The notes beneath the pieces are model-generated. The model was not told the DNA's origin. It did not search any database and worked only from the letters and a program-made list of their open reading frames with translations. Positions 298 through 46,622 of a stretch of DNA of 64,000 bases are shown one piece after another; within the stretch, counting starts at the first letter, position 1; every line of letters begins with the position of its first letter. Made by a program: the position numbers and the translations under genes. The stretch lies in contig OX442314.1 of NCBI GenBank assembly GCA_949358305.1, positions 12,710,001 to 12,774,000 on the forward strand. Direction: 5' to 3'. The stretch comes from Strigamia acuminata (Eukaryota).

Positions 298-2547
298 ATG
301 ACTAATAACCAGCATCACATGAACACCCGTGGTAAGGAAAGAACTTGTTTGACCGGTGGAATGAATCTATCCGGGTTTGTACCTGTTCCTAATGGAATTG
401 AAGAAGTGGGAAACCACGCGGTCCATAATGGCGTTTCAAATGAAACAGCCGGACCATCTGGAGAGAATAGGGCTCCACGAGAACCTACTCCGCCTGGAGA
501 AGAGGAATGCATTCCTGAAGGTTCTCATTTAGGCCGAGGCGGTCTATTATTTTGTCAGGATCACGGTTTGAACCCAAACCAATTTAGATCTTTGACTGAA
601 GTGTTAGATTTTGTACACGCGCAACGTGCTACGTCGGAGCAACCTAATTCCCCAGCCAGCCAAAGATTAAATAATTTTAGTCCCACTCCTTCGACGCCTA
701 TTTCTAGATATAGAAATAAAAATGCACAACCTCCTCGTCAAGATCAGTCGAATTTGACACCAGGAGATTTTAATCGTGCTTTCCAACAACGATTACGAGC
801 GAATAACTTCGCTCGCAACCAACAAAGAGGATTTACAAATCCAGAGAACTTTGAGAATACGTTCAACAGAGCGAATTTGGGTCCGCCTAATATGGCCAAC
901 CCTAATCCAAGTTTTCCAAACGGATCAAATAGTTGTCCGAATCTCGCTGGAAATTTGAACCCAAATTCAGGTGCGACAAGAGGTCCAAACCGCCGTTTTG
1001 ACCCAAATTCCAGATTTGCAAACAATTCTAGTCCAGCACCTAACATGCAAAGGGGTTATCCAGTTCCTCCGAACTCGAATAACCTAAATAATCCGAACGA
1101 TTTAAATAATCCTTCTACTGGAACTCCAGGAAATTCAAATAACTATTTGAATCGGGGTACGCCAGGTAATTCGAACTATCGTCCAAATTTTGGTAATCAA
1201 GAAAGTTCGCACAACCGTCCGAATTTTAACAATCGAGATAATTCTAATAGTCATTCGAATTATGGGAACCAAGGTAATTCGAATAACCATTCGAATTTTG
1301 GTAACCACAGCAGGTCAAATCAAGGAGGGTCGAATAATTTCAACCCTAATAGTGGTGGCTCAAGTCAAAATAACTCGAGTCAACCAAAAAATAATGGCGG
1401 GTCGTCAAACGACAACTCGCGCCCCCCTAGTAGTTTTGGAATGACGGCTGATGACCTCGCGTCAATTGCCACAACCATGCACAAATTAATGCAGGCTGGA
1501 AAAAGTTCCGCCACTGTCCCTCAAACTAACAGTTTGAAACCCCCAGATATCCCTGTATTCTCAGGAAAAGCAGAAGAAAGCGAACGCTTTCTCAATATTG
1601 TAAAAAATGTCGCTTTTCTGCGAAACATGTCACTCGATGACATGCTTGTTAAAGGCGTTGCTGGTTATCTAACCGAGCAAGCGCATGGTTGGTTTCATGA
1701 ACGAAGAGAAGATTTTATATCTTGGGAAGTATTTGAACAGGCGTTCAAAGAACGATTTGTAGCCACTCGACAAGAGCGGACGAACCAACTAACTAAGTTG
1801 AAACAACTGGAAACAGAAAGTCTTTACGACTTTATGCACAAATATTACCAGTTATGGATATTACAAGACAGTCTTGATGCAAAAGGGGCTGGTTGTCTTT
1901 TTATCGGGAGTGTAACTCCTGCTAATGATTTGCTTTTACATACGCAAGGCATAGCGGATTTACCTCTGACAGAGATTTATTCCGTTATAACGAAAAATAA
2001 AGGCTTGTACAGTCGTACAGCTAATGGAGCAAGGGAAAATATCTCCAATCCAGTTGTTTTCCCACCTCGGAAAACTGACACTCGTCCTCAGCCGAAGACA
2101 AATGCTAAATCTTTAACTTTGGATTCACAAGAACAACTTAATATTTGTGAAGAAGAGTTACCAGAGGAATGCGAGGCCGTCTATTTAATAAATGGAGTAG
2201 TAGATCAGACCAGACGTGGTCAATTAGTTTGTTACCACTGTAAGAAACCAGGACACATGCGTCGAGAATGTCCAGATTTAAAACCACGTGCAAAGTTCAA
2301 CTCTGAAGAGTTGCCAAAACGAAGTACGCCAGATTCCCCGACTGTGGATCCTACTTCTAAACGTCCTAATAACAGATGGATAACTCAAGAAGTGTTGGAT
2401 GCAACACTGGATGCTAAACTTGATGCGAAATTAAATACTTTTGAAAATAAGTTACAAACTTCGCTGACTAACTCATTGGCAGAAATGGTCAAGACTTTGA
2501 TCAAGCCCGAATCTGCTGATTCAAGTGCGACTAGTTCAAAAAACTAG
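298..2547 (+). CDS. gag: Gag of gypsy element A (long Asn/Pro/Gly-rich N-terminal region, capsid-like core, zinc knuckle)
   Basis: 749-aa ORF; retrotransposon-gag-like core (FSGKAEE...LTEQAHGWF...SWEVFEQAFKERF...LKQLETES) and CCHC knuckle CYHCKKPGHMRREC. Confidence 0.92.
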   Translation: MTNNQHHMNTRGKERTCLTGGMNLSGFVPVPNGIEEVGNHAVHNGVSNETAGPSGENRAPREPTPPGEEECIPEGSHLGRGGLLFCQDHGLNPNQFRSLTEVLDFVHAQRATSEQPNSPASQRLNNFSPTPSTPISRYRNKNAQPPRQDQSNLTPGDFNRAFQQRLRANNFARNQQRGFTNPENFENTFNRANLGPPNMANPNPSFPNGSNSCPNLAGNLNPNSGATRGPNRRFDPNSRFANNSSPAPNMQRGYPVPPNSNNLNNPNDLNNPSTGTPGNSNNYLNRGTPGNSNYRPNFGNQESSHNRPNFNNRDNSNSHSNYGNQGNSNNHSNFGNHSRSNQGGSNNFNPNSGGSSQNNSSQPKNNGGSSNDNSRPPSSFGMTADDLASIATTMHKLMQAGKSSATVPQTNSLKPPDIPVFSGKAEESERFLNIVKNVAFLRNMSLDDMLVKGVAGYLTEQAHGWFHERREDFISWEVFEQAFKERFVATRQERTNQLTKLKQLETESLYDFMHKYYQLWILQDSLDAKGAGCLFIGSVTPANDLLLHTQGIADLPLTEIYSVITKNKGLYSRTANGARENISNPVVFPPRKTDTRPQPKTNAKSLTLDSQEQLNICEEELPEECEAVYLINGVVDQTRRGQLVCYHCKKPGHMRRECPDLKPRAKFNSEELPKRSTPDSPTVDPTSKRPNNRWITQEVLDATLDAKLDAKLNTFENKLQTSLTNSLAEMVKTLIKPESADSSATSSKN

Positions 2548-2578
2548 ATCCGGGGGACGAAGGTTTATTCCATCCCCC
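2538..2578 (+). promoter_or_regulatory. -1 programmed ribosomal frameshift signal (gag-pol, element A)
   Basis: A AAA AAC heptamer at 2538-2544 in gag frame, 7-nt spacer, then stem GGGGGA (2552-2557) / TCCCCC (2573-2578). Pol is in the -1 frame, which is open from the heptamer onward. Confidence 0.85.
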
Positions 2579-2582
2579 AGAA

Positions 2583-5500
2583 GTGGCTAATGCTACGTCG
2601 GAATCTTTGTTTATGGATGTAGACACAACTTGTCTTGAAGTAGCCACTAGTCATAGTGGCGGAGTAGAGGAAAATCTGCAAGAAATGACAGAACAATTAA
2701 AAAATCTGACATTGTTTCCACACAAGTGCTACACGAAGAAATTCTGTAGACTCCGCCGACTCAACAGAGTCATAGGTGGTAATAATTTGCACAATATTAC
2801 TTTGGGTAATAATAAAGATGATCCTCGAATGAAGATCACAATTGGTGGGCTCACCTACAACGCGCTCATGGATACAGGAGCATCTCAATGTTACATTGGG
2901 GAACAACTCTTGTCTGAAACTCAGGCTTTGCCAGAATTTTTGCAAGAAGCCCCTAGAAATATGTTGGTTAACGCTGTAGGCGTAGCACACAAGCCTGTCG
3001 GACAAATAACTTTGTGCGTGCAATGGGCTGATGAATTTACACCAATGAATTTCATCGTTTTAGCAAAACGAGTTTGTGGCTTGATACTTGGTCACAATTT
3101 CATGCGCAGACAGAAAATTAGTCCGCATCCACATTTACAAGAGTTCTCTTGTGCAGATAAACCTAATTGGTCCGCTCCTTATGAATCGGAAGAAGCCAAT
3201 TTGGCCCTCGCCCCGTTGAATCGAATTACTTTCGATTATTTAGGACTGTCGTCCACTCTCAACTCAATTGAGTTAACAGACACTCCTGTGTTGACTTGGG
3301 ATGAAAAATTAGTTGAGGAGAGCGACTGCACTCCGGAGCAAAGATTAGCACTTCGCGAAGTGGTTAAATCGATATCGAATGTATTTCGTGATCAAGTTGG
3401 GTGCACTAACGTGACCCAGCATCGTATTAAGTTCAAAGAAGGGCATTCATTGCCCAAAATGCAGTATAGAATGTATAACCCGGCCAAGAGAGCCATTATG
3501 ACCAAACTAGCTGCAGAATTGGAACAGGATGGACTCATTGAAAAGGCCAAGGGGCCCTTCATAAGTCATCCCGTCATTGTTGCGAAGCCTGACGGCTCGT
3601 ATAGGATGTGCATTGACTACCGGTGGCTAAATGCCATCACCGAAGTCGAAGTAATACAAATGCCAAGTATTGACCTTTTATTGCATAATACTGGTCCTGC
3701 TAGGTATTTTACGTCAATTGACCTTGTCAAAGGTTACTACCAAGTCGAGATGTGTAAAGAAGATCGACCAAAGACGGCATTTTACACGCCAAATGGTCCA
3801 TATCAGTTTGTGCGAATGCCGTTTGGCCTTTGCAATGCGCCTTGTACTTTCCAGCGTCTGATGGAAGGCATTTTAGGCTCAGCTTTGCAAGACTACGCGT
3901 TAGTTTATTTGGATGACGTAATTGTGTATTCAGATAATTGGGATGATCATCTCAAACACGTTCGAGATGTTCTAGAAAGGCTTAACCAAGCCAACATGAC
4001 AATAAATAAAGCGAAATCTCGTTTTGGGCGTACAGAATTAAAATTCTTGGGCCACTGGATTAAACCCGAAGGTCTCTTCGGTGATCCCGATAAAATATCG
4101 GCGATTATGAAATTTCCCACCCCCACGTGTGCTAAAGACATTCAGCGCTTTCACGGCATGACTAACTTCTTCAGGAAGTTTGTTCCAAATCACGGAACTA
4201 TTGCCGCACCATACACACGTATGATGAATGAGAAAACTCCATTTGAATGGGGAGATGAGCAGACAGAAGCTTTTAATAAAATTAAAGAGCTACTTTGTGG
4301 TGACAATTGTCTACACAAACCAGATATGACTTTACCATTTGTTGTCATGACTGACGCTTCACATGAAGGCTTAGGAGCTGTCCTTTGCCAAGACGTCGAT
4401 ATATTCGATGAAAAGAAGCAGAAAAACATTTCTGTACCCAAACCTGTAGCTTATGCAAGCAGAGTTTTACGTGGAGCGGAGAAGCGTTATACAACGCCGG
4501 AACTCGAATGTCTCGCAGTTGTGTGGGCTATTGATCGATTTAAACCATATCTCGAATATGGTACATTCACTTTAGAGTCAGATGCAGAAGCACTGAAATG
4601 GTTGATGCGAACGCCTGAACCATCTGGGAAATTTGGCCGATGGGCCTTAAGAATCCAATGTGGAAATTTTAAAATTGTTTTTCGAAAAGGTGCTGCTAAC
4701 CAAGTTGCAGATGCACTTTCTAGAGCCCCACTAACAGAGGAAGACATTCCTCTTCGAGATCATGTGGAACCTGTCGAAATTAAACAATACTGGCCTGAGT
4801 GGGACGGAAATCCTTCTGTTTCATTAAATCGTGCCCCAGAAAAACGAGAATATTTGGCTAGTGTGCGTTCCTATTTTTCTGAAAATTCTAAAGAATGTTC
4901 TGAAGAAAAGGAGGGGGAGGAAGTACAAGAAACCTTGTACAGTGCGTTGACTGAAGTACTTAAAGAAGTCCCTCCTACAAGGAGAGAAATAATAAATGCT
5001 CAATTACTAGATAATGAATGCAAACGCATTCGAGAATATTTATTGAATAACAAGGTTGTTGGGATACCACAATCTGAAATAAAAGAATGGAAAAACAAAG
5101 TCAAAAATTATTGTTTAGACAAAAAAGAAGTTGATGGTGATCAAATGATCATCTATTTTAACCCTTCATTCGAAGAGGAATTAAACGATTCGGGAAATGG
5201 CTTTAAAGCCGTTGTACCCAGTGCACTTGTAAAGCGAGTACTCTTCGCTTGTCATGGCCACCCCCTAAGCGGTCACGCTGGGATGAGTAAGACGCTTGAG
5301 AAAACGCGTTTAATATATTTCTGGCCTGGTATGAGTAGAAGTGTCAGGAACTACGTCAAAAGCTGCACGCACTGTGCTCAGTACAAGCCTATTCAACAGA
5401 AAAGGCACGCAGCTCCTTACACGCCACACAACATGACCAATCCTTGGGAATGTATTAATATGGACTTGATGGGCCCAAAACCCGCGGGAAGGTCCCAAAA

Positions 5501-6809
5501 CCAGTATATTTTTGTCATTATTGACAATTGTACCAAGTTCGTTGAAATTAAGGCTTTGACAAAAGCCACGAGCGCTAACTGCGTTCAAGAATTAAGATCT
5601 GTTACAAACAGATGGGGACACCCCAAAAAGATTGTGAGCGATAACGGAAAACAATTTGTTTCCGATATTTACAATGAGTATTGCGAAATGTACAACATTC
5701 GCCCGTCTCATACGAGCACGTATCATGCTCAGGCGAACCCGACAGAGCGAGCCAATAGAGATATAAAGACGATGCTGGCCCTGTACACAGATGTGCACAC
5801 GCAATGGCCGCGTTATTTAGACGAATTTGCATTCGCAATGCGAAATAATGTTTCGGCAGCAACGGGCTCAAGCCCGATGTTACTGAACACCGGACGAATC
5901 GTAACATTACCTTTCGACCCAAGGATTATTAAACATGCCAATCCATTTGACAAAGAAAATCCAGAAAAATATGTCAGAGTATTATTAGATATATTACGCA
6001 GATCGCATCAAGAGATGCATCGCAGAATTCAATTGAATTTTGAACGACATAGAAAAATACACGAACAAAAGTTCGTAATTACGGAGTTCGAAGTTGGAGA
6101 TTTAGTTTGGAAACAAACTCACATTCTCTCGTGCGCAGATAAAAATATCTCCGCTGGATTTGCCGAGAAGAGAGATGGTCCGTGGGAAATTACTAAAGTA
6201 CTTCCTGGCGGAGCGTATAAATTACGCAAATTAGCTGATGGTTCAATTGAAAAATCAGTGAATATTAAAGCGTTGTACCCCTATACTCCGTCGTACCCGA
6301 TCGAGACTTGGAAAGTAGGACAAAAGTCCGCCTCCTACTCGCCTCAAGAAAATCCTAAATGGATGGACGAAAGTAATCAACTTCCGGATGCTGAAGAAAT
6401 GGAATTAATTCCTGAAACTTCTTCAGAAATTCCAATGGAATTATCCGACTCAACTTCGGTGCAAATTGACAAATCTGCGCCCATTAAGTCTAAACATAGA
6501 CATAGACAACGATTAACTGCTATGGAAAGGAAAGCGGCGTTAAAAAGAGGCGAAGTTCCAAAGAAACCGCCTCGAAAACCCCGCAAACCCCAACCGATAG
6601 TTCCACGAACTAGCACTCGTCCACGACGAGAACGAAAACCAAATCCTAAATATGCAGATGAAAATTTCGTGCGAAACATCACTGTAGTATTTAAAAAAAC
6701 CATACCAACAACGAGGAAAAGCCTCAAAGTTCTGTTGGAATTGATAAGTTTTATTCAAAACTTGAAGACTGTAATTATTTACATGTCAGACAGGTGTAGT
6801 GATTTATAA
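2583..6809 (+). CDS. pol: Pol polyprotein of element A (protease, RT, RNase H, integrase); real entry probably by frameshift at ~2544
   Basis: ALMDTGAS protease, YLDD RT, VMTDAS...ELECLAVVWA RNase H, H-H-CTHC zinc finger, MDLMGP / SDNGKQF / TERANR integrase core; no internal stops. Confidence 0.96.
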   Translation: MANATSESLFMDVDTTCLEVATSHSGGVEENLQEMTEQLKNLTLFPHKCYTKKFCRLRRLNRVIGGNNLHNITLGNNKDDPRMKITIGGLTYNALMDTGASQCYIGEQLLSETQALPEFLQEAPRNMLVNAVGVAHKPVGQITLCVQWADEFTPMNFIVLAKRVCGLILGHNFMRRQKISPHPHLQEFSCADKPNWSAPYESEEANLALAPLNRITFDYLGLSSTLNSIELTDTPVLTWDEKLVEESDCTPEQRLALREVVKSISNVFRDQVGCTNVTQHRIKFKEGHSLPKMQYRMYNPAKRAIMTKLAAELEQDGLIEKAKGPFISHPVIVAKPDGSYRMCIDYRWLNAITEVEVIQMPSIDLLLHNTGPARYFTSIDLVKGYYQVEMCKEDRPKTAFYTPNGPYQFVRMPFGLCNAPCTFQRLMEGILGSALQDYALVYLDDVIVYSDNWDDHLKHVRDVLERLNQANMTINKAKSRFGRTELKFLGHWIKPEGLFGDPDKISAIMKFPTPTCAKDIQRFHGMTNFFRKFVPNHGTIAAPYTRMMNEKTPFEWGDEQTEAFNKIKELLCGDNCLHKPDMTLPFVVMTDASHEGLGAVLCQDVDIFDEKKQKNISVPKPVAYASRVLRGAEKRYTTPELECLAVVWAIDRFKPYLEYGTFTLESDAEALKWLMRTPEPSGKFGRWALRIQCGNFKIVFRKGAANQVADALSRAPLTEEDIPLRDHVEPVEIKQYWPEWDGNPSVSLNRAPEKREYLASVRSYFSENSKECSEEKEGEEVQETLYSALTEVLKEVPPTRREIINAQLLDNECKRIREYLLNNKVVGIPQSEIKEWKNKVKNYCLDKKEVDGDQMIIYFNPSFEEELNDSGNGFKAVVPSALVKRVLFACHGHPLSGHAGMSKTLEKTRLIYFWPGMSRSVRNYVKSCTHCAQYKPIQQKRHAAPYTPHNMTNPWECINMDLMGPKPAGRSQNQYIFVIIDNCTKFVEIKALTKATSANCVQELRSVTNRWGHPKKIVSDNGKQFVSDIYNEYCEMYNIRPSHTSTYHAQANPTERANRDIKTMLALYTDVHTQWPRYLDEFAFAMRNNVSAATGSSPMLLNTGRIVTLPFDPRIIKHANPFDKENPEKYVRVLLDILRRSHQEMHRRIQLNFERHRKIHEQKFVITEFEVGDLVWKQTHILSCADKNISAGFAEKRDGPWEITKVLPGGAYKLRKLADGSIEKSVNIKALYPYTPSYPIETWKVGQKSASYSPQENPKWMDESNQLPDAEEMELIPETSSEIPMELSDSTSVQIDKSAPIKSKHRHRQRLTAMERKAALKRGEVPKKPPRKPRKPQPIVPRTSTRPRRERKPNPKYADENFVRNITVVFKKTIPTTRKSLKVLLELISFIQNLKTVIIYMSDRCSDL

Positions 6810-7795
6810 TCTCAACACCGGGGGACAAGATATTACGATATTTATCGAAATTTGTATTAAAATATGAATTTGTTGCGATAAGTCAAAATATTCGATAGAA
6901 TATTTTATTATGTGGTCAGATTTATATGTATTTTAATTAAAATACAGAGAATTACTTTGAAAAGTGATAATCTCGCGTAATTACGAAGGTACGAGACTTA
7001 CGAGGTGTGATTAAACCTCGAACCCGACAATTAATAGGGAATAAAATTCCCAGGGTTCATTGCACACAAACACTTCGTAAAAAAACACGGATACTAGTGA
7101 CTTCGTCCCTTCGACCCGTCTTCATTTTTCGACTCGAGATTTCCACGCTAATTCAATTAGCGACTTCAGCAAGGAAAACAAGCTTCAACAGTAAGTAGTT
7201 TTCAAATATATTCTTTGACCAAAGAATTGAAAAAATTGTTTGCAACAATTGAAAATATCGGCGTCCCGATAAAAGTTAAAAAATTCACGTGTATTATAAG
7301 CGTGAATCGGCATTAAATCACTCTGGAAGTTTAGCTATTCAGTCGAATAGTTGGGTTAAATTTAATAATTATTTATTAAGTTTAAGTACGTGGGCACTAA
7401 TTATTTAAATCAAGTCGCGGTCGAGGCTTGCATAAATTATTTAGCGGTGAATTTTCGATTTGAGATATTCATTAGACTAAGTGTTAATTAATTAATACGA
7501 AAAGTTATCTTTGATACTCGGAAGTTGGATTAAATAGTTTAAAGAAACTAAGGGGATTTTTCTTTTGAAAATTCAACAAGTTGCGATTTTCGATGAAAAA
7601 TCGCTGTCAGGCGAGTCCATTCTCGTGTCATAAACACAAGGGGAATGTGACTCATTAGTGTCACGTGTTAGGGGTTATAAATAACTCGAGCTGTGTATTT
7701 TTCGTTGCGAACAATACGTTTTAATTCTTTGGACTCAAGGAATGATTATTTAGAGTGGAATTATTTTTAATAAAATAATTTATTTGCGTCTGCAG

Positions 7796-9316
7796 ATGGG
7801 AGGTGGTAAACACCGCTCAAAACGGAGTCATCGACGACACCGTCATGAAAGCTCGTCCAGCTCGTCCACCTCGTCTAGTGACGAACAACGCCGTTCAGCG
7901 GAACGTGCTTACATGAGGGCCCAACCGATACCGACGGCGCCCGCCTCGATGTACGCCCTGACGCCGCTGCAACTCGCGACGCTAAATTGGCTCAGTGTCC
8001 ATCCAGACGGATTTCCGCTCGATTTGAATACGATGATGCAGGCCCCGTCCACTTCTGCTCAGCCAACCGTTTATGAGTCGGCGCAAATGGCCCCGTTGGC
8101 CCAGGTGGCGTATCCGCCCGCGAACGTTATCAACGTCCCGTTGGCCCCGCATTCGCCAGAATTTCGGCCGCCAACTGCAAGCGTGGCGCCCACCGTCGCC
8201 AACACGTCGAATGCGACTGCACCGACTGTGACGGGACAATCAGTGTCGGTTACGCATCTTCCTGCTGGTGCTGAGTCTTCTGCATCAGAATATGGATGGA
8301 ACGAGCCGCCACCGGGCGCTCTGCGTTATTCGGAGCCTGTTTCTCGCAACCGCGAGTACAGAGCGGCCAATAAAGCGAAAAAGAAGGATGAGAAGGCCCG
8401 CCTGCGCAAGGAGCAGTGCGAACGAGACATGGCAGCCGGAATACCTCACGATAACATCGTGACGGACCAAGCCACGGAGACGATATGCCCATTTTGCGTC
8501 GGCTGTGGGTGGTGCTGCGGTGCATCCGCAGGTTCTTCGCTTATGCGTTGTCCAAACTGCCGTGGAAGGAAAACGCGCCCGCGTTCGGAGCCGTGGCGCA
8601 AGGAGGTTCAGCCCCACGTGGTGAAAGGCATTAAGCCTAACGAGAAGCGATGTTGGGCTCACTGCCCCAAGTGCCGATTGTTTTTGAACAGCCGTGGCGA
8701 AGCGGTTTACATCGACCCGCGCTTCCTCACCTGGGCCCGCGCTGAAGCCAACGCCGGCGTAAGAGTCGAACTCCTTCGACAATCACCGCCGCCGTCCGAG
8801 GACTCCGAAGTTTCGACTGAAACTGTCCAAGCCGTCGAGAGCGCCGGAAGCGAGGTCATGGAAGAATTCGTTCGACCCAGAACGATGTCGCGTGGACGAG
8901 GCTGTCTGACGCTCGACCGAGCAAGAGAAATCGCCAAGGTTCAACGAACCAATATCTTGGCACGAGGGCGAGCTCGTAAGCTTCAACAGGCCGTAGAAGC
9001 ACCGTCTAAACCCGTGGAGGATCCTCCAGCGGTCATAACTGACGTGTCGAGCGCTCCTATCGCGTCTAAGTCCGAGACTTCGGACGACGCTCAGTTTGAA
9101 GACGCCGAAGAGCTGCTTTCCGTCGTCGATTTCGTGGCAGAGTTGCTCGAGGATCTGCCGTTCCCACCTCCGAGCCCAGAGGAGATTGAAGCGCCGGAGG
9201 AAGCCGTGTTTTCCGCCGTCTCGACAGAGGCGACTGAAGAGTCGGATTTCCTGACTTCTGCCGAAGTCGAGAAACCAGAAGTGAAGGAACCGACTGAAGT
9301 CGAAAAGAAGGATTAA
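7796..9316 (+). CDS. ORF3 of element A: 506-aa protein of unknown function (basic/Ser-rich N-terminus, Cys-rich putative zinc-binding centre, acidic C-terminus); not env-like
   Basis: Long intact GC-rich ORF between pol and the PPT with AT-rich flanks. ATG at 7796 directly follows TTTGCGTCTGCAG. Motifs CPFCVGCGWCC, CPNC, HCPKC. No signal peptide or TM segment visible. Confidence 0.8.
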   Translation: MGGGKHRSKRSHRRHRHESSSSSSTSSSDEQRRSAERAYMRAQPIPTAPASMYALTPLQLATLNWLSVHPDGFPLDLNTMMQAPSTSAQPTVYESAQMAPLAQVAYPPANVINVPLAPHSPEFRPPTASVAPTVANTSNATAPTVTGQSVSVTHLPAGAESSASEYGWNEPPPGALRYSEPVSRNREYRAANKAKKKDEKARLRKEQCERDMAAGIPHDNIVTDQATETICPFCVGCGWCCGASAGSSLMRCPNCRGRKTRPRSEPWRKEVQPHVVKGIKPNEKRCWAHCPKCRLFLNSRGEAVYIDPRFLTWARAEANAGVRVELLRQSPPPSEDSEVSTETVQAVESAGSEVMEEFVRPRTMSRGRGCLTLDRAREIAKVQRTNILARGRARKLQQAVEAPSKPVEDPPAVITDVSSAPIASKSETSDDAQFEDAEELLSVVDFVAELLEDLPFPPPSPEEIEAPEEAVFSAVSTEATEESDFLTSAEVEKPEVKEPTEVEKKD

Positions 9317-10058: not shown

Positions 10059-11645
10059 TGTGATGATTACAAATCAATAGTTGTCAATGTTCACCATAGA
10101 TGGCGCTGTTTAACCAACGCGCGTATTTCAAACTCGGTTAAAAACTAAAAAGTGTGATAAATAATTATTTAGACACGGTGAATAAAATATAACTATTTTA
10201 TTCGATATAAATTAAGTATTAATTACTTGATGATGTTGATTCTATCGAATCAATGTCCACTTTACTTACCTGTCGAAGGGAACCAATCGGACCCTTCCGG
10301 ACCCCAACTGGGCCCATCTGGACATAGTCACATATTAGGTCCGGACTAGTGACCCACGAATCCGCCGATTCGTACGCTGATTGGCTGTCGCCAATCTAGT
10401 AGTTCTACAGAACTATATAAGCATCAGTTTTCCACTTCCCCAAGGCTTGGCTTGATAACTGTAAATGTCTGTAATTGAATTGTTGTTATCGTTTGATTTC
10501 ACTTTCTTATCGACACATCAGGCCTCCTCAGCTCTCAATGGATATGTAGACTTACTATCTCGTTATTGCTTGTTGTAAGGCCCATCTGGGAAGGCTAACC
10601 TTGTAGACATGTTAACAACATGAAATGGCCCCGTAGTGTTAGCCAGCTGTTCTAAGGGACAGTAGGATTTCATACGGTGGCATAGTGTAGTGCTCATGCA
10701 CGGGATTGACTAACCCGTTAAATAAATGTCAAACTATATGATCGGTGATAGTCGCATCTATCTGAGCGATTCCTCGGACGAGGGTCAGACGCTCTGCCAA
10801 GGGCATGTGTGCGGGAGGTCCCACCCGAGCACGAAACAAACACGGACAAATGCTATTCCAGGGCGAATTGCGTATCATAGGTCCTTCCGTACTTTAGTGG
10901 TCGGTGAATGGCATATTTAAAGGCACACTACGCCGGGTTGGTAGCCCGTGAGAATTGTCCGTGAAGACATTTCGTTAAACAATTACTCAGGTATTGGTAA
11001 TCCTGGAATTGGTAAATCCATAGGAATGTTCACCCGGTGGTTGGTACCACCGATAGCGATGTAAAGCGTACAAACAAATACTCGGCGCCTGATCACGAGA
11101 TCTTGTCGTCGTAAGGCGTGCTGGCGGATGGAGTCTCAACAACTCCCGCGACGTTCTCTCAATTGTCGTGACGGTCCCCGCCCAATCATTATTTATATAA
11201 CAATTCATTTGTTATATTACTTTAATCACTTTACTTTTATTCATTTGGAACATGGAATATTCTGCCGAATATTCCGATTAATGCGAAGGACTCTTCGCAT
11301 ATTTAGATATTCGAGCTGCGGACCAAATACGTCTCCGTAGCGATATTTGTGACGATGCCGCAAGTCAGCCGTATCCCTCTGGCTTCGCCCGGATCCTCAA
11401 CCAGTTGATGCCGCCCGTTTACACGCGTCAAGAACCCATTTACTGTTATCATTAATATTTAGTAATAAATATGTTAAGTCACACTAAAACTGTAAGTTAT
11501 TTCTATTCGATCACATATTCATGTTTGTAAGGGCTTCCGTAGCTTATCTCGGTTAGGTTGTTGCTAAACTTAGCAACGTCTTGTATAAACCGAATTATCT
11601 ATCTTAAAAGGACTAATAAATTGGCCCAAAAGTAGAATCGTCACA
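10059..11645 (+). repeat. 3' LTR of element A (~1587 bp)
   Basis: Starts TGTGATGATT after PPT GGGGGA and ends AATCGTCACA (9/10 terminal inverted match); TATATAA near 10410. The partner LTR is not in the window, so the ends are unconfirmed by comparison. Confidence 0.78.
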
Positions 11646-12239
11646 ATGTGACAAAAATAAACAATGTAAACATATGTTAAATAAAGAAAAGGTGATTACA
11701 AAATTGGTGTTTTAAAATGGATTTGTTTACTTGGTGGCTCCGTGTTTCAAGGAGTTCGAGAAAGCCGTTTGGTTTTTATCTTCAACTGCAAATATGGATG
11801 CGCATATCGTCTTTGTTGGTCGAATGGTTGCGACCGATCGGTCTCAGTCTAGCGGTCCATCTGCCGACGAAATTCAACTTTGCATCAACAAACAAAGACA
11901 AATCAAACACAACGGCGCGAGTTCAGCGCGTGAGATTTCAAATTCATTTCATCGAGCAATGCGAGTTTCGCCTTTCATTTTCGAATGTCGGACGAAAAGG
12001 GCTAAGAGCCTTTCGGCTTCTTTTCAAAAAGAACACGAAATTAAATCAATTTGGTAAAATAATTTGGTAGCAGCAAATTGATTCAGGTATTTGCCGTCAT
12101 TTATTCTGAATTTAAAATAAAAGTGAGAAGTGAAATAGAATTTCTGTTTCTGTACACAACGACCAATCAATCAATCCATCGATTTCAAAGAACAAACAAT
12201 GGAGAAAGTTTGTGTTCACAACGTCCTTGGATGACAAAG

Positions 12240-20980: not shown

Positions 20981-20983
20981 GTC

Positions 20984-30100: not shown

Positions 30101-30136
30101 ATGATGATCATTCCACCGAATAATGACCATCTCGTC

Positions 30137-37009: not shown

Positions 37010-38005
37010 TGTGGTGACCCGACTGGGGTGGGGCACGAAGAGTTTCTCTCGTGGCCTACATACGGGTAAAGAAGGGGAGTCGCACGCGCGCCTCCCTTCC
37101 CTCAGAGCATTGACATCCAGTCAATGGACGGGCGTCTGCCCTGGGGGAGTGGGGGAGATTCGTCTTCTCCACTATTGGGTGGCTTTAGTCACCTGTCACC
37201 CCCCGCTTTGTGCAAAGGAATTCGCCTTGCACTGAGCGGGCAGAACCAACACAAAAATCAACCAAGATACACGTAAAAGCCAAACGTCCTAAAACGATCA
37301 AGCCTAAGTACAAAGACTTCAGGAGTGACCTAGGACAAGGGACTTTCAACGTGAGTACGATTGATTTGTGTTAACCTCCGCAGAGTAACCTGCGAAACAA
37401 GATTACCACACTATTTTAGCAAGCCAGCTAGAAATAGTAAACCTACTCCAATTTAGCGAGTTGTGCAGACAAACGGTCGCACAAGCCTAAATTGCAGTAA
37501 CCACGACGAGCGTTCCCGCCGCTGTGTGTATCGCCGGGAACCACCAAGCGTCCGCCGCTGTGTGATCGCCGGACACCTACAAAAAACCCTAAACCTAGAC
37601 AACAGACCAGAAGTAAGACCTTTCAGGCATTCACTCGCGCCCGACCAGCGTGAGCCCGAAGGACCGAACGAGAAACGTGAGACGAGGACGCCATTCATTG
37701 CCACGCCGGCCCAAGACGACACCACGTTGCCACGCGGACGCCATCTTGGATCCACAGCGACAAAGGACGACCTCGACCAGTTTCTCGCCAACTTCACACC
37801 CCTTTCCTTTTACCTTTTTATTCCCTTACATATTTTATTCCCTTTTAACTGTATATTCCCGTATAATAAATACATTTATTATATTTACCTTTTACATTGT
37901 CTTGCCGTGTTACATTATTTGGGTAACCGCTTGAGTAAAGCGGTATTGCGAGATCAGAGAGTGACTCATACCACGTATCAGCGACAGACCGAGTTGAGCG
38001 CGACA
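37010..38005 (+). repeat. 5' LTR of element B
   Basis: TGTGGTG...CGCGACA; direct repeat of 49530-50525. Confidence 0.95.
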
Positions 38006-38073: not shown

Positions 38074-41000
38074 ATGGCAGACAATATCCGAGTAACGGAT
38101 TCCGACTCCGACGCGAACAAGAGAGCCGGCAGTCGTAAAGGCGCCGACTATCACTTGCGATCTGGAGGTCCCTTACCCAAAGCCTCAGCGCACGAAGCGA
38201 GGCAAAAACGGCGCAAGCCTAAACCCGATCGCAGAAGCGCATCAGAGGCATCGCACCCGTCTCGTTCCGAGACGAGGCAGCGATTGGACGAGACAGAGCG
38301 GGGTGAAGAGCAATCTCACTCCAAACTGCCGCGTTCTAACCGTGACGGCGAGACGAGCGGAAACGAGGTTTTATCCCGTAACCCATCGCCTCGTCTAACG
38401 CACGACACCGAGGTGGGCAGTCCGAAAGCGGCGTCTCCGATACAAAAGACGGCCTCAAACACGACAGCTAATTCGGCACTAAACACGCCAATTACGCAAA
38501 GCCGCCCAGCTTCGGTCAGGTCCGAAGGACACAAGTCCAATGCGTCAAAAACTGAGCGTGTTCCGAGCCAGCCTTACAGCGTCTCGGCCACATTGGTTGA
38601 CACGATGCAGTTGGCACAGGCAGAAGGTGTACGATACACTCTGCCAACGGGAAAAATAACTGTGTACGAAACATTACAAATCGTACGTGCAGCTTTAAGA
38701 GCGCACAGGTTATCCCCAGAAATCACCGTTGTTGAAGACGCATACGCTCAACAAATGGTAGACTCCGCTCAATTCGAAGCGGATGCCGAGAATGAGGCCC
38801 GACAAGCCATCCGCGAGAGAAAGCGGAAGCTGGCGGAAAGAGAAGCGCGAGCTCTCGAGTACGGCAAATCCCAGCGCGTTCCGACTACTCCAGAAGAAGT
38901 CGAAATAGTTGATCGAGCCTTACATGCACATCGTTATGCATTCCGTTCTCAACAAGAAGCTGAACAAGCTTTCATGACTAGGCTGCAACGAGACAAACCA
39001 AAATCCGTTCGCAAGCCAGAAGTTAGCTCGTCCGAATTGTCCGACGAGAGCGTAGAAGGCGACCCGAAGCGCACGCCGAAGGTCAGCCCCAAACCCGAGC
39101 GAAAAAAGGAAGTGCCAGTCACTCCACGCAAACGGGAAGTCTCGACCGAACAACGCGTTCGACCTCGCATGATGGCGTTAGACGATAACACTAACAACGC
39201 TATCAACCGATTAATAAATGCGAACAACGCGCGTCGTAACGAAGAACAGACTCACACGAGCCGACAACGCGACGACCCGCGGGGTAACGACTGGCAACAG
39301 CCGGTACCCATCCTCAAAGACGACGGACCTTCGAGAAAACCTTCCGAAGACCGCACATCGTCACGAGAGGAACGTCAACGCGAAAGAGGACAGCAACAGT
39401 ATCACTACGGAAACAGTGATTCGTCGTCGGATGAACTGGAGTCGAATGCACCCAGTCATCACGATTCGGAGAGAGGTTCCGGAGAAAGACGAAGGGAAAG
39501 AGAACGCGATGAACGCAGGGAAAGGGAACGTGACGACCGTCGTAGGGGCCGGAAAGAGTCAAACTCTTCACGGCGCAACCCGCCACGCCGCTCACCGTCT
39601 CCCGACCCCAGCTCCGACCCCTCGTCCAACGACGACAGACGAAATGATAAGTCAAGTAATCGCCGGAAGAGATCCAACTCTCCGCGCGATAGAGAGAAAC
39701 GACGTCGATCGGAAAATAGCGACCACCGACGGGAGGAGTTTCAGGACCTTCCCCGACAAAGCGCGTTTACCGATTCGACGGGTCGGCAGTATACGATGGG
39801 AGAGCTTGGAAGAGCCCTGCTTGGCTCGTTAAAAGCCGAAGGAATCGATCTGAGCAAACGAAATGATCGTAATCGTAACACTGGTGACCGCGTAAAGAAA
39901 AAATACGCTGTCTCCCGACGTGACACCATGAGTGTTACCGGGAATATTAGGTGGCAATTTTATATTCAGAACCGTTTCGACGGGTCATGGAAAGCGGGAG
40001 ATCGCTTCCTTGACGAAGTAATTCGGATTAAGACTGCCACTAAAGCCACCGTAGGAGACATGCTCACCCACGGTATTGTCGAGCTAATGACAGGCTCGGC
40101 ACGTGAGTGGTACCAAGGATTGAAAGGCGTCAATTGGGACGACTTTTTAATGAGATTCGACCTGCGCTACGGCGAGACACCCGAAGAGGTGAGCCGAAAG
40201 ATGCGAGGTCTTCGCCAGATGCCTGGTGAAACCATAATGGATTACGACATTCGCGCCAGATTGTTGTTCGAAAAGGCCCCGATGGAATTTCATGCCACGG
40301 GATTCAACCTTTTCTTTCTCGGCGGTTTGTCGGAATACTCGCAACGGGTGCTACTTGAAGAAAGGGCACCGACAGGAGGCAGCTACGAAGAAATGAGCGC
40401 CTTCCTGTTCGAGAACACGATAGATATCGAGAAGAGATATTATTCCGCTTTACCAGAAGCGGAGAAAGCAGCAACCGCTAAACGTCTCAAGTTGAGTGCG
40501 GAAAGATATGGGGCGACAGACAAAATCATGCGCCCTACTGAATATCTTAGCGGTATAATGGAGCTGGCAGAAGCTAGCGTTGGTTTACAAATAAAAAATA
40601 AACTGACATCCACGCTGCCTTCCAACCCATTGGCCGCCCCTAAAAAGGCACCGACAGCGTCAGCCATGCAAGCGACACTGGAGGAGGTCAAGGAGGGGGA
40701 GGAAGCCGAACAAAATGTCGGAAAATCAGACGAAAAAGAAGAAAAAGACGATTATTCGACGGACGAAGAAATACGAAGCTATCGCGATACCTTATCAACG
40801 GGTTGCGATGAGGAAGGACCGCTAGTACATCTCATCCATCGAGATAGAGCGGTAGAAGAATTTCGCGCCAGGTTAAAACCAAATGCCGGCCGAATTCCGA
40901 AGTATTTTCGAAAAAATTACACGCCACCGTCGAAAGTAGACCCTGAAAAAAAGAAATCGATTGAAGCCCCAAGAGACAAATCAAATATTCGTTGTTTTAA

Positions 41001-41154
41001 GTGTAACCAACCGGGTCACTATTCCAATGAGTGCCCAAGAACAGCGAAAGAAGACGCTAAGTTTGACGCGATAATGAAGCAGATGGCAGAGATTAAACTC
41101 GCCATGGCAAAAAACGAGTCAAAAAACGAGTCAGCGCAGGCGGCGAAGAAATAA
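38074..41154 (+). CDS. gag: Gag of element B (~1026 aa; long charged RS/RE-rich N-terminal region, capsid-like core, CCHC)
   Basis: LMTGSAREWY...WDDFLMRFDLRY...LRQMPGETIMDY core; CFKCNQPGHYSNEC knuckle; first ATG at 38074. Confidence 0.92.
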   Translation: MADNIRVTDSDSDANKRAGSRKGADYHLRSGGPLPKASAHEARQKRRKPKPDRRSASEASHPSRSETRQRLDETERGEEQSHSKLPRSNRDGETSGNEVLSRNPSPRLTHDTEVGSPKAASPIQKTASNTTANSALNTPITQSRPASVRSEGHKSNASKTERVPSQPYSVSATLVDTMQLAQAEGVRYTLPTGKITVYETLQIVRAALRAHRLSPEITVVEDAYAQQMVDSAQFEADAENEARQAIRERKRKLAEREARALEYGKSQRVPTTPEEVEIVDRALHAHRYAFRSQQEAEQAFMTRLQRDKPKSVRKPEVSSSELSDESVEGDPKRTPKVSPKPERKKEVPVTPRKREVSTEQRVRPRMMALDDNTNNAINRLINANNARRNEEQTHTSRQRDDPRGNDWQQPVPILKDDGPSRKPSEDRTSSREERQRERGQQQYHYGNSDSSSDELESNAPSHHDSERGSGERRRERERDERRERERDDRRRGRKESNSSRRNPPRRSPSPDPSSDPSSNDDRRNDKSSNRRKRSNSPRDREKRRRSENSDHRREEFQDLPRQSAFTDSTGRQYTMGELGRALLGSLKAEGIDLSKRNDRNRNTGDRVKKKYAVSRRDTMSVTGNIRWQFYIQNRFDGSWKAGDRFLDEVIRIKTATKATVGDMLTHGIVELMTGSAREWYQGLKGVNWDDFLMRFDLRYGETPEEVSRKMRGLRQMPGETIMDYDIRARLLFEKAPMEFHATGFNLFFLGGLSEYSQRVLLEERAPTGGSYEEMSAFLFENTIDIEKRYYSALPEAEKAATAKRLKLSAERYGATDKIMRPTEYLSGIMELAEASVGLQIKNKLTSTLPSNPLAAPKKAPTASAMQATLEEVKEGEEAEQNVGKSDEKEEKDDYSTDEEIRSYRDTLSTGCDEEGPLVHLIHRDRAVEEFRARLKPNAGRIPKYFRKNYTPPSKVDPEKKKSIEAPRDKSNIRCFKCNQPGHYSNECPRTAKEDAKFDAIMKQMAEIKLAMAKNESKNESAQAAKK

Positions 41155-41172
41155 CTTCTCGACCGTCTGCGC
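41109..41172 (+). promoter_or_regulatory. -1 frameshift signal of element B with two tandem slippery heptamers
   Basis: A AAA AAC at 41109-41115 and 41121-41127, both in gag frame; hairpin GCGCAGGCGG (41134-41143) / CCGTCTGCGC (41163-41172); -1 frame open into pol. Confidence 0.85.
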
Positions 41173-41177
41173 CATTC

Positions 41178-44100
41178 ATGAAGAAGAAGGGGTTTAACAA
41201 AGGGTTCGATAAACCGCCACCAGTCAAAGAAATGGGTAGTGACATAGCTAACGCCCAGATCCAAGACAGGGCCAACAACGCTTTGCAGGTAATTACCGCA
41301 AACGCTGAGGCTGAGGCGGAAGAACCAAACCTACTGCTTGAAGAATTACCTCAAGTAGTCGAAGACACAGAAGAATTTCGTGTTTTCATGTGCAACGTGG
41401 CGGTCGAATATACCAGCCGCCTATGTATGCTGCCCATGACAATAGAACGCGAAAAAATTATGGGACTGCTAGACTCGGGAGCAGATCGCTCGTTCGTTTC
41501 CGAAGACATAGTAGCATCATTGGGTCTCACCGATAAGATAAAAGGCGTTAATAAAAATGTACGTCTAAAAACCGCCAACGGAATGGCGCGTCCAAAAGGA
41601 GTTATATTATTGACCATGGAGTGGCTCGGAGGGGTAGAACAGCACCCTTTCCTGGTCCTGCCCACGTGCGACAGAATTTTTCTGTTGGGCTTAGACCTCA
41701 TGGCGTCAATGGAAATACAACCAAATCCAATAACGAAATCTTGGAATTATATCAGAAATGATAGAGAAAGACCCGCAATTGTCGTGCCACCAGCTCTTAT
41801 CAAAGAAGCGGCCGACAAGACACAGTGGGAGAAAGGCCTAAAGAAATTCGTTCAAGACTACAATTTTAAAGCATTCGTAGCAGAATTGCAACGGGACAAT
41901 GTAGTGGAAACGCTTGTCGCCGACGCCGCTTTAGAATTAAACGAAGCGGCAGCCCTACGAAGGGTCCTACTTAAATATGAGGGGATCCTGTCGAAAAAAC
42001 CGGGCCGAACGAATAGGGCTATTCACGAGATTAAATTGACGGATAATAAACCTATACGAGTTGCGTATAAGGGAATGAATCCGCAAAAACGTGAAATAGT
42101 GCAAAAAATGTGCCAAGAAATGCTAGACAGTGGCATTGTCTCCGAGGCCCAGGGAGAATACGCGACGCGAGTTGTGCTCGTGATGCGCCCGGGCTCGGAC
42201 CCACGCCTATGCATTGATTACCGCCCATTAAACGCGGTGACAGAGATAGATCCCATACAGATGCCGTCTATCGAATCCATTTTGAGAGAGCTTAGCCCCT
42301 TTTCTTGGGTTACGACGATGGATCTGTCGAAGGGATACTGGCAAGTTGAGATGAGGCCAGAGGATAAGCTAAAAACAGCATTTTACTCGCCAATTGGACG
42401 GTTGATGTTCAACGTCATGCCGTTTGGTTTAGTGAATGCTCCCAGTACCTTTCAGAGACTAATCGAAAGCGTATTGGGTGATATCCTGCATCAGTTCGTG
42501 TGGGCATACCTAGATGACATAGTTATTGCCTCTAAAACATTCGAAGAGCACATTGAGCACATCGACCAAGTGCTCACCCGGCTGGCGAAAGCTGGGTTAC
42601 ACGTTCATCCGGGCAAGAGCAAGTTCTGCCGAAAGGAGCTTGCCTTCCTGGGTTATCGCATTGGAGTCAACGGTTTAGCTATTGGCCCCGAAAAAATCGA
42701 TGCGATTAATCGTTTCCCACCACCCGAGGACGTTAAAGGTGTCCAACGGTTTATGGGAATGATAAACTTCTTCGGCAGGTTGCTACCGGGTCTAGCTGAA
42801 GTGGCAGCCCCAGTTACCGACCTCCTGAAGAATGAAAACGAATTTGTATGGTCAAATGAGTGCACCATCGCATTTAATGCGATAAAGAGGATGCTGACGG
42901 AAGTCGGCGTAATGCCTCTACCCGACTTAAACCGGCCGTTCATATTACATACGGACGCCAGCAGAGTTGGGTTAGGAGCGGCGTTGCTCCAAACACACGT
43001 GCGCGACGGAGTCGAACAAGACCTGCCGTGCATGTTTATAAGTCGCAAACTCCAAGGCGCTGAAAAAAATTACAACGCCACAGAGTTGGAGTGTTTGGCA
43101 GTTGTGTGGGCTATAAGGAAATTCAGAGATTATCTCGAATATACCAAATTTGTAGTCCACACAGATCATCAAGCGTTACAATGGCTGATGAAATTAAAGG
43201 AGCCAGCCGGTCGACTAGCCAGATGGCAGTTAGAACTGATGGCATGTGACTTGACCATTCAATACAAGCCCGGCAAATATAACGTCGTGGCTGACGCTCT
43301 ATCAAGGGCACCAGTGTCAGATCCTATCGACGCTGACGATGATGGCGAGGATGATTCCCGCATCATTTACTGCCCGACGAGTTGTCACCGTTGGGATTTA
43401 AGGAAGATAAATGAAATTCCCACCGCGTCTCCAGCAGATGTAAAATTCTGTGGATTCTGGACGCGGTTATACCAACCAGCTGCTGACAATCACCCAAATG
43501 CAAAGAAGGAATTTAAGCTAGAGCGGAGAATAAATGACCCGCTTCTAAGCGCCTTCCACGCTCATGTCGGCAGGCAAATGCGAAGCAATCCCCCGACAAG
43601 GGAGGAAATAATTGTGCAACAAAAATTAGACAAAAAATGTCAGGACAGAGCTAGATTCGTACTGACAGGAAAATATCCGCCCAACTTAACCAGAAGGCAG
43701 AAGCGTCGTTATGCACACGAATCCATAGATTACCTATTGGATGACGGCCTTTTGGTGAAACATCACCCAAATCACCAAGATGACTTGAGTGAATCGGACA
43801 CCGCAGTAAAGGTAGTAATACCTGCTTCCTTAATCGGTCGCGTGCTGTGGTTGTTACACGGGCACCCGCTTGCAAGCCATGCGGGAGTAAGCAGAACACT
43901 CTATCGTGCTACACAGCTTTTTCACTGGACAGGGATGAAAAAAGATATTGCTCTTTTTGTCCACCAATGTCAGCGATGTCAAGCGTGCAAGCCGAGGAGT
44001 AAATCACCATTCGAAACTATTTTCTTAGGGCCTTACGCGCCTTTTGATTGTTTAAGTGTCGATGTGATGGGCCCAAAACCCGTTACGGGAAATAAAAATG

Positions 44101-45248: not shown

Positions 45249-46622
45249 AAAACGTTACGAGTCGATGGCGACGCTGAAAAACAAAAAAATTGACCGATCG
45301 ACAGCGCTAGCCATCAAAATCCGAGACTCTGAAAATTTCGCTAAGTCCAACAAAGCGGATATCGGTCGAATTCGCGTCACGAGATGGCGTGGAAACGCGG
45401 GACCCGTAGCAAAATTATCGGCACGGGTCGGATACCGCGTGCAAAAGACCCCGTAGCAGCGATCGCGCACGGGCGTAGAAACAAAGGAGCCCCGTAGCGT
45501 AACATGCGCACGGGCTGTTGCGCACAGTCATAAGCACCTGGTTCTGGAGTAAAATTACCCAGAACCCACCACGATTGCCTCGTTTTCACCCGGACTTCCG
45601 CTAAAATCAGCTGATCGTCGTCCGCACGTGATACACAGCGAGTGCATTTTTAACCAAGTTTTTGATCCATTTTACGAGAAGTTTTCAAGTTTTTTAATCG
45701 TGGTCTGACTGAACGCGCAATCCTCACGATGGATGAGGAAGGAGGGGACGAGGAAATGCTTGAAATACAGCATCATGACGAGAATTGGGACCCGGACATA
45801 AACGTAGTTCCACCCGATCAGGTAGTAGTCGGCATCGCCGCACGAGATTTAGCTCCGTGCGGTCGAATTAAAGATACACTTGACTAATACTTGACATGAA
45901 CGCTCTGCGTTCGAAATCGTGTATAATTATTATACTAATATCCACGATCGCGAGAGCGATTGTATTTTCTCCTATTATTTGTCTTCAAGGACGCGATAGC
46001 AGACAAACTGTCGCCTCGCTCCTTGAAGATGACTCACGACAATTGACACGAACGAGACAAAGGAAACGAGCTTTCTTTTTATATTCCAGAAATGGGAATA
46101 ATTTATTGGATGGATTTTGAAAGAATTTATAGAACGTTGTTTCTATTTTTATTTGCTATTTTATTTGCGAATTTTTTCCCGATGACACTAATTTATTATA
46201 GATTCGTTTTTTAACTCGACTTTAACTCCGAATTTTTGGAGTTATTATTAGACAAATTTATTTCTTTACAAGTTAATTCACGACAAGAACATTTGTTTAC
46301 ATGTTCTAAAATTGTTATTGGAGATTTTCACGAACGATTTCGCGAATTTATTGGTTTAAATACAAATTTACAGTTTAATTTTAAATTAAGCAATCCGAAG
46401 AAAAATTTCCGGATTAATACGCTCGATTCCGTCTCGTGGTTATCATTGGACGTGAACCAGATGTGCCAAGAAGACTCTTTTCTTCCTGACAAGGACGAAT
46501 CAATGAACAGGAATAGGACTCGACGAGCGGTCGCACGTTTCAGCGACGTTCCTCGAGCCCACCCCCTATTTATCTCCGTGTTATTGGCGATTTCATTAAT
46601 TATTTTGTTTCCATCATTGCAG

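What the first reader, a model, noticed from the sequence alone, without database searches (positions are those of the whole stretch)
7191..7798. Both ORF3s start at a splice-acceptor-like CAG|ATG, with candidate donors just downstream of pol
Seen: element A has a consensus donor CA|GTAAGT at 7191 and TATTTGCGTCTGCAG|ATG at 7796, giving an AT-rich 605-nt candidate intron. Element B has TTTTGTTTCCATCATTGCAG|ATG at 46623. GC content rises abruptly at the A junction. Known: env of gypsy-type errantiviruses is made from a spliced subgenomic RNA. Inference: ORF3 is expressed from a spliced transcript, either from the LTR or from an internal promoter after pol. An intron retained in a retroelement genome would imply regulated splicing.
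Basis: partly seen in the sequence, partly recalled or inferred. Interest (0 to 1): 0.72.

Follow-up and report, generated by a model that had tools for sequence, protein, structure and literature searches.

The report
Retrotransposon accessory genes with splice acceptors
Two jumping genes in an animal genome each carry an extra, non-envelope gene whose start codon sits directly behind a splice-acceptor-like sequence, so it is likely made from its own spliced RNA, and in one of them that RNA likely starts at an internal promoter; this is a new variant of a known way such elements express a third gene.

Summary
The coordinates are right, but the story needs correcting. Elements A and B are Ty3/gypsy LTR retrotransposons. 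Their ORF3s are not env and are unrelated to each other; A's has a Cys-rich domain conserved in Strigamia gene models. The acceptor at the ATG is more than chance: 3 of 2023 window ATGs score as well, two being these ORF3s; the nearest relative with downstream DNA (L003) also has CAG|ATG; two Strigamia gene models join onto the homologous ORF3 about 6 nt before its ATG. The donor claim holds only for A: GTAAGT at 7191 is alone unremarkable (P about 0.26), and B's spacer has no GTRAG. New here: A's spacer holds a 666-nt ATG-free stretch (1 of 4000 shuffles) like a scanned leader, running 402 nt into the 'intron', and E-box/TATA modules lie inside it. In B the ATG-free region is the LTR, which carries a GTGAGT donor. 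No intronless DNA copy was seen; no RNA data exist here. Best reading: A uses an internal promoter with a facultative leader intron, B a long splice from the LTR. Splicing itself is not shown.

The parts
298..2547 (+). Element A gag (first ATG 298; zinc knuckle, capsid)
329..337 (+). Top-scoring sense donor of element A (GTG|GTAAGG, GT at 332), 34 nt into gag; out of frame with ORF3; rival distal donor
2535..6809 (+). Element A pol (PR-RT-RH-IN)
6927..7592 (+). 666-nt ATG-free stretch, third longest on the + strand after the two copies of B's LTR/leader; inferred scanned 5' leader
   Evidence: 1 of 4000 shuffles of the spacer reaches it
6991..7190 (+). GC-richer block (0.42 between 0.27 and 0.285); inferred non-coding first exon; its end would give A at -3 of the ORF3 ATG
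7188..7196 (+). Candidate donor ACA|GTAAGT
   Evidence: no variant of 8% or more at 7163-7229
7191..7795 (+). 605-nt candidate facultative intron; three short upstream ORFs (21, 1, 3 codons) at its 3' end
   Evidence: no DNA joint across it
7286..7300 (+). E-box CACGTG plus TATAAG; promoter-like module 1 (motif names recalled)
7648..7683 (+). TGACTCA, CACGTG and TATAAATA in 36 nt; promoter-like module 2, the only such triple in the window (motif names AP-1, E-box, TATA recalled)
   Evidence: 0 of 3000 shuffles, pattern chosen after seeing it
7767..7795 (+). Acceptor of A: TTAAT branch-like site at -26, T-rich tract, CAG
7796..9316 (+). ORF3 of A, 506 aa, non-env, basic/Ser-rich N-terminus, low complexity
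   Evidence: 8 of 9 listed family variants synonymous
8330..8740 (+). Conserved helical plus Cys-rich domain of ORF3-A (44-48% identity to Strigamia models)
10059..11699 (+). 3' LTR of A (ends inferred; 5' LTR lies outside the window); GTAAGT at 11492
37010..38005 (+). 5' LTR of B, identical to the 3' LTR, target duplication CATC; one ATG where 9.4 are expected
37348..37356 (+). LTR donor AAC|GTGAGT (GT at 37351); joined to 46623 it would give CAAC before the ATG
38074..41154 (+). Element B gag
41097..45248 (+). Element B pol
45729..45827 (+). Possible 31-codon coding exon and weak donor CAG|GTAGTA (GT at 45822), in frame with ORF3-B; rival proximal donor
46065..46089 (+). Strongest sense acceptor of B, followed by an ATG at 46092 (40-codon hydrophobic ORF)
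46596..46622 (+). Acceptor of B: TTAAT at -24, T-rich tract, CAG
46623..49490 (+). ORF3 of B, 955 aa, non-env, no relatives found
49530..50525 (+). 3' LTR of B

Best explanation
Each element carries a non-envelope third gene whose ATG directly follows a splice-acceptor-like CAG, and this gene is likely translated from its own spliced mRNA: in A likely from an internal promoter behind pol, with 7191-7795 as a leader intron that would be removed only in part of the RNA, and in B likely by a long splice from the LTR donor at 37351. Shown: the motifs, the reading frames, conservation of ORF3-A, the ATG-free leaders, no intronless DNA copy among the contigs laid. Inferred: transcription starts, use of any junction, retention of the intron in packaged genomic RNA, and a nuclear RNA-binding or regulatory role for ORF3-A (basic/Ser-rich end plus Cys-rich domain, by analogy with CERV).
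For: Acceptor: 3 of 2023 ATGs score as well; L003, the closest relative with downstream DNA in the integrase tree, has TTTTACCAG|ATG 70 nt behind pol, 1 of 17 downstream ORFs in 25 loci; Strigamia models P0018 and P0003 both join pol to the ORF3 homolog about two codons before its Met, in different frames (13 of 17 positions compatible, 0 of 20000 shuffles). Start codons: homology with P0018 begins right after the Met (6 of 2000 shuffles); 7 of 9 family variants at third positions, P=0.008; codon-position GC switches at 46623. Internal leader in A: 666-nt ATG-free gap, 1 of 4000 shuffles, antisense control 986 of 4000; B's gag leader is the positive control. Pattern is reciprocal: A spacer ATG z=-3.0, A LTR -0.8; B LTR -3.4, B spacer -0.9, and each GTRAGT donor lies in the depleted region with A at -3 while the unspliced context has C. 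GC steps down at 7191. A diverged subfamily aligns from 7186 on while differing just upstream (tables 7, 8).
Against: No transcript was seen, so no junction is shown. GTAAGT at 7191 is expected by chance in about a quarter of shuffles; better-scoring donors exist at 332, 6989 and 7005. ATG depletion continues 402 nt into the candidate intron and promoter-like modules lie inside it, which constitutive splicing would not need. Invariance of donor and acceptor among copies is weak evidence (P=0.25). In element A five other sense AGs score higher than 7795, antisense AGs higher still. B's LTR depletion is already explained by the gag leader, and B has other donors (40189, 44272, 44859, 45822). The Strigamia junctions are gene predictions read from protein only. 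The splice matrices are rough recalled frequencies, not trained on this host.
Confidence: 0.45

Rival explanations
1. Classic subgenomic splicing in both elements: the acceptor at the ATG is joined to a donor in the LTR, leader or gag, as for errantivirus env, Tor3a env and Cer1 CERV; GTAAGT at 7191 is chance or only a U1-binding site.
For: Top donor of A lies 34 nt into gag (332), as in Tor3a (PMC4402516 section 18); the only other sense GTAAGT of A is in the LTR (11492); L003 has only 70 nt between pol and ORF3; B has no proximal consensus donor.
Against: Does not explain the 666-nt ATG-free stretch or the promoter-like modules. Donor 332 leaves gag ATGs upstream and out of frame, and eight ATGs lie in 11000-11491 before the LTR donor.
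Confidence: 0.25
2. A's ORF3 comes from an unspliced RNA starting at an internal promoter inside the '605-nt intron' (TATA-like sites at 7295 or 7676), as in Tor4b; neither the donor nor the acceptor is used much.
For: TGACTCA-CACGTG-TATAAATA cluster 113 nt before the ATG, two E-box+TATAA pairs in the spacer (2 of 3000 shuffles); ATG is the most depleted of 64 trinucleotides in 7191-7795; remaining upstream ORFs are 21, 1 and 3 codons; no intronless DNA joint.
Against: Motifs were picked after seeing them; the ATG-free stretch begins 264 nt upstream of the donor, before both modules; the acceptor position is shared with Strigamia models, B and L003; the unspliced start context has C at -3; B has no such module.
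Confidence: 0.2
3. The splice-like motifs are chance matches in AT-rich spacers or relics of captured host genes; ORF3 is read by another route or not at all.
Against: Three unrelated ORF3s all open at CAG|ATG (background 55 of 2023); ORF3-A is conserved and its variants are mostly synonymous.
Confidence: 0.1

Closest known systems
Oikopleura Tor elements (PMC4402516; passages and section 18 read)
   Same: Gypsy-like elements in which the third gene is made either by a splice from near the gag start (Tor3a) or from an internal promoter in pol or in the space behind pol (Tor3b, Tor4b).
   Different: Tor's ORF3 is a membrane glycoprotein and its internal-promoter RNAs lacked splicing; here ORF3 is non-env and an internal promoter would be combined with a leader intron.
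C. elegans Cer1 CERV (PMC10309623; passages read)
   Same: Non-env ORF between pol and 3' LTR, spliced mRNA, Cys-rich domain; CERV exports unspliced genomic RNA.
   Different: CERV shares exons with gag; ORF3-A has its own ATG at the acceptor. No sequence similarity to CERV was found or directly tested; function here is untested.
Drosophila errantivirus env (gypsy, ZAM, Idefix; PMC12992720 passages)
   Same: Third ORF behind pol reached through an acceptor.
   Different: Donors lie upstream of or within gag; Env has signal peptide, furin site and transmembrane domain, absent here.
Bdelloid rotifer Vesta/Juno non-env ORF3s (PMC5408684; passages read)
   Same: Diverse, unrelated non-env ORF3s, including DEDDy exonucleases like ORF4 of L003; stated to be typically expressed from spliced messages.
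   Different: No junction mapping in the passages seen; ORF3-A and ORF3-B match none of those types by Pfam.
Foamy virus internal promoter (PMC7828637 figure legend seen; splicing of tas/bet RNAs recalled)
   Same: Internal promoter near the 3' end serving accessory genes.
   Different: A retrovirus; promoter lies in env; no homology implied.
Strigamia maritima gypsy elements (gene models P0001, P0003, P0006, P0018)
   Same: 57-59% integrase identity to A, same clade (support 99), homologous ORF3 domain.
   Different: Only predicted proteins were available, no DNA.

Membership tests
Ty3/gypsy LTR retrotransposons (Metaviridae) | gag, then PR-RT-RH-IN order in pol | tested here: met
   both elements
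Ty3/gypsy LTR retrotransposons (Metaviridae) | Two LTRs with TG..CA ends, target duplication, PBS, PPT | tested here: met
   B: identical 996-nt LTRs, CATC duplication, purine tract before the 3' LTR. A: only the 3' LTR is in the window.
Errantivirus (env-bearing gypsy) | ORF3 is an F-type envelope glycoprotein (signal peptide, furin site, TM) | tested here: not met
   No env Pfam match; max 19-residue hydropathy 1.1 and 1.4; 2 and 1 N-glycosylation sequons
Errantivirus (env-bearing gypsy) | ORF3 mRNA spliced from a donor upstream of or within gag | not testable with these tools
   No RNA holder listed; candidate donors at 332 and 37351/40189
Tor3b/4b-type internal-promoter ORF3 | Capped 5' end in pol or in the spacer, no splicing | tested here: inconclusive
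   Leader-like ATG depletion and promoter-like motifs in A; no 5' end data
CERV/Rev-like export factor | Non-env ORF behind pol with conserved Cys-rich domain | tested here: met
   (ORF3-A only)
CERV/Rev-like export factor | Nuclear protein required for export of unspliced RNA | not testable with these tools
   No functional data; model too poor to compare (pLDDT 49.8)
Osvaldo lineage | Long LTRs and tRNA-Lys PBS (PMC3286476 passages) | tested here: inconclusive
   LTRs are 996 and about 1640 nt, but B's PBS looks like tRNA-Pro (recalled, not tested); no named reference elements were in the tree
Spliceosomal GT-AG intron 7191-7795 | GT..AG ends, branch-like site, T-rich tract | tested here: met
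Spliceosomal GT-AG intron 7191-7795 | Removed in RNA | not testable with these tools
   Only DNA-type contigs could be laid; no joint

The most novel reading that the evidence does not exclude
A clade of arthropod gypsy elements behaves like complex retroviruses: a slot behind pol holds exchangeable accessory genes behind a splice acceptor, and element A drives a Cys-rich regulator from an internal promoter through a leader intron that is spliced in the subgenomic RNA yet kept in the genomic RNA, with the protein itself acting Rev- or Tas-like on that choice.
Probability: 0.2. Interest if true: 0.72.

Novelty: new variant of a known kind. Interest (0 to 1): 0.45.

Why it matters
Third ORFs of gypsy elements are often filed as env by position. 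Here they are unrelated non-env proteins that share only an entry point, an acceptor at the start codon. If A's internal promoter and facultative intron are real, it is a compact, testable case of how a retrotransposon keeps an intron in its packaged genome while splicing it in another RNA, and ORF3-A is an unnamed protein family kept between this host's elements and Strigamia's. If only the classic long splice is used, the finding is an ordinary instance of known biology with a new accessory protein.

Tried and rejected
No whole genome is held, so copies could not be aligned directly. No RNA holder listed; this says nothing on expression. Single-sequence search with ORF3-A found nothing among 278-886 aa proteins; the homologs were longer fused gene models. 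ORF3-B: 0 hits in 1.84 billion representatives; Atlas blank for ORF3-A and for residues 1-200 of ORF3-B; no similarity between the two ORF3s (best E 0.24). Pfam on the Cys domain gave only sub-threshold zinc-ribbon/anti-TRAP hits, PDB sequences none better than E 0.18; the AlphaFold model was too poor to search. No relative of the ORF3 domain in metagenomes (217 candidates); viral contigs gave no useful locus; genome contigs gave one distant element and 78 weak, mostly prokaryotic integrase matches. No shared sequence between LTRs and spacers or between the two spacers beyond short AT-rich matches. Rejected: env identity; a signal anchor from ATG 46461 (hydropathy 2.46 there is likely the T-rich tract read in frame; codon-position GC is flat); a gag-ORF3 fusion in A (the donor at 331/332 is phase 1). 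Earlier scan notes: none. The tree is the quick one; the careful search did not finish. Nine paper searches listed no description of this myriapod-linked ORF3; most subscription papers and Repbase were not searchable, and no supplements were read.

Full report
Setting. The window is animal DNA with tandem LRR genes and several retroelements. Element A has gag 298-2547, pol 2535-6809, ORF3 7796-9316 and a 3' LTR at about 10059-11699; its 5' LTR is outside the window. Element B is complete: identical 996-nt LTRs (37010-38005, 49530-50525), a CATC target duplication, gag, pol and ORF3 46623-49490. The two pol proteins are 35% identical. The best integrase relatives are Strigamia maritima gene models (59% and 52% by BLASTP); A, B, these and P0002 form one clade with support 99 in a quick tree of 41 rows, with L003 and an Orchesella protein next, in an open fork of support 82. 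The host itself was not identified.

The observation. All quoted coordinates are exact. CAG precedes 55 of 2023 ATGs in the window. With a rough matrix of recalled frequencies, 3 of 2023 ATGs follow an AG scoring at least as well as these, and two are the ORF3 starts (threshold set afterwards). Both sites have TTAAT 24-26 nt upstream. The donor is weaker: one GTAAGT in the spacer is reached in 25.9% of 2000 shuffles, it ranks 9th of 645 sense GT in A, and B's spacer has no GTRAG. In B the chosen ATG is the third in frame, but GC by codon position is flat at 46461-46622 (0.48/0.41/0.48) and coding-like from 46623 (0.67/0.54/0.63).

The proteins are not env. Neither has an env family match or a transmembrane stretch, and they are unrelated. 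ORF3-B has no relative. ORF3-A has three, all Strigamia gene models in which it is fused to pol fragments (E 3e-39 pairwise with P0003), sharing a helical and Cys-rich domain. Of 9 family variants listed inside ORF3-A are at third positions and 8 synonymous; one search showed only 40 of 1115 rows, so this is a subset.

Comparative support for the acceptor. L003 has pol, then after 70 nt a 383-aa ORF opening at TTTTACCAG|ATG, then a DEDD exonuclease-HRDC ORF 40 nt behind another acceptor-like site. It is the only one of 17 sense ORFs of 150 aa or more behind the match in 25 loci to have YAG|ATG (the 25 are those of 88 loci that I scanned and that had enough downstream DNA, and most of the other ORFs are host genes or pol pieces). 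Gene models P0018 and P0003 leave pol at different places yet both enter the ORF3 homolog about two codons before its Met, one in frame and one in another frame (13 of 17 positions compatible, null mean 3.3, 0 of 20000 shuffles). That implies a host-like acceptor at nearly the same place in Strigamia; it is inferred from predicted proteins, without DNA.

Copies. Two DNA-type contig sets of one study hold the family in many copies (15054 and 4985 contigs laid on 1-12600). On 7090-7900 (875 and 400 contigs) all 34 substitution rows of 8% or more were shown; none falls in 7163-7229 or 7747-7801, but at this density both sites would be free by chance with P=0.25; 4 indel rows and 86 loose ends were hidden. 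One diverged contig aligns from 7186 onward with a loose upstream end. No joint was listed, so no intronless DNA copy was seen; contigs drop rare variants. If full-length RNA lost these 605 nt it would keep gag, pol and the replication signals, so such copies would be expected (inference). B copies were not examined.

A's spacer has no ATG for 666 nt (6927-7592; 1 of 4000 shuffles; antisense control 986 of 4000). The only longer gaps on the + strand are B's LTR/gag leader and its 3' copy, where scanning is expected. The pattern is reciprocal: ATG is the most depleted of 64 trinucleotides in A's spacer and in B's LTR, not in A's LTR or B's spacer (A's 3' UTR is mildly depleted, z=-1.8). Each depleted region holds a GTRAGT donor (7191; 37351) whose exon end would put A at -3 of the ORF3 ATG, while the unspliced context has C (the purine rule is recalled; donors 332 and 11492 also give a purine). 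GC is 0.42 in 6991-7190 between 0.27 and 0.285. Against a simple intron: the ATG-free stretch runs 402 nt past the donor, and two CACGTG+TATAA modules lie inside the candidate intron, one with TGACTCA (2 and 0 of 3000 shuffles, patterns chosen after seeing them).

Mechanism. I commit to a separate ORF3 mRNA entering at AG|ATG (about 0.7 taken alone); for A an internal promoter behind pol with a leader intron that is only partly removed and is kept in genomic RNA; for B a long splice from the LTR (0.45 for the whole). Rivals are the classic distal splice in both (0.25), an unspliced internal-promoter RNA in A (0.2) and chance (0.1). No start site or junction is shown.

Known systems. Tor3a env is spliced from near the gag start, Tor3b/4b env comes unspliced from internal promoters (PMC4402516, passages and section 18). 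Errantivirus env donors lie upstream of or in gag (PMC12992720 passages). CERV is a spliced, Cys-rich non-env ORF needed for genomic RNA export (PMC10309623 passages). Rotifer elements carry varied non-env ORF3s including DEDDy exonucleases (PMC5408684 passages). Foamy viruses have an internal promoter (PMC7828637 legend). Passages of PMC3286476, PMC13524379 and PMC6673714 did not describe this arrangement. So a spliced third ORF is known; the unnamed Cys-rich protein and the possible promoter-plus-retained-intron arrangement are the new parts.

Verdict. Observation partly confirmed, interpretation partly supported, new variant of a known kind, interest 0.45.

Noticed in passing
L003:12615-13937: A gypsy element with a fourth ORF, an RRP6-like DEDD 3'-5' exonuclease with HRDC domain, 40 nt behind an acceptor-like site; its terminal direct repeats seem only about 55 nt long (7331 and 14383) and gag is missing.
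   Followed up: partly
window 240-264: The top-scoring sense acceptor of element A lies 34 nt before the gag ATG, and the LTR's 3' part is ATG-rich, so gag of A may also be reached by splicing.
   Followed up: no
window 45400-45520: Three spaced copies of CCCGTAGC...GCACGGG in B's spacer behind pol, with CACGTG at 45625 and TGACTCA at 46030; enhancer-like or hairpin-forming.
   Followed up: no
window 46089-46214: Strongest acceptor of B is followed by a 40-codon hydrophobic ORF; may be a small membrane peptide or only T-rich DNA.
   Followed up: no
window 37351-37383: A donor and a good acceptor only 33 nt apart inside B's LTR.
   Followed up: no
window 9963 and 10269 (minus strand): Two strong antisense donors (TTG|GTAAGT, CAG|GTAAGT) at the 3' UTR/LTR of A; the second is the best-scoring donor on that strand.
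   Followed up: no
window 11464-11497: GTAAGT 28 nt behind an AATAAA in A's LTR, the layout that suppresses 5' LTR polyadenylation in some retroviruses (recalled).
   Followed up: no
window 17719-36089, 50365-51794, 61243-64000: A cluster of single-exon LRR genes of about 440 aa on both strands; element B is inserted among them.
   Followed up: no
window 20974-23745, 24023-26218, 54675-61061: A LINE (endonuclease-RT), a short copia-type element with 159-nt repeats, and a third gypsy element with identical 265-nt LTRs and one 1689-aa ORF on the minus strand.
   Followed up: no
P0005, P0010: Gypsy pol proteins annotated with an extra peptidase C48 domain (PF02902) and a PF02023 domain.
   Followed up: no
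L089:7210-10233: A eukaryote-type gypsy element with a 1007-aa antisense ORF behind pol lies in a bacterial genome bin, likely contamination.
   Followed up: no
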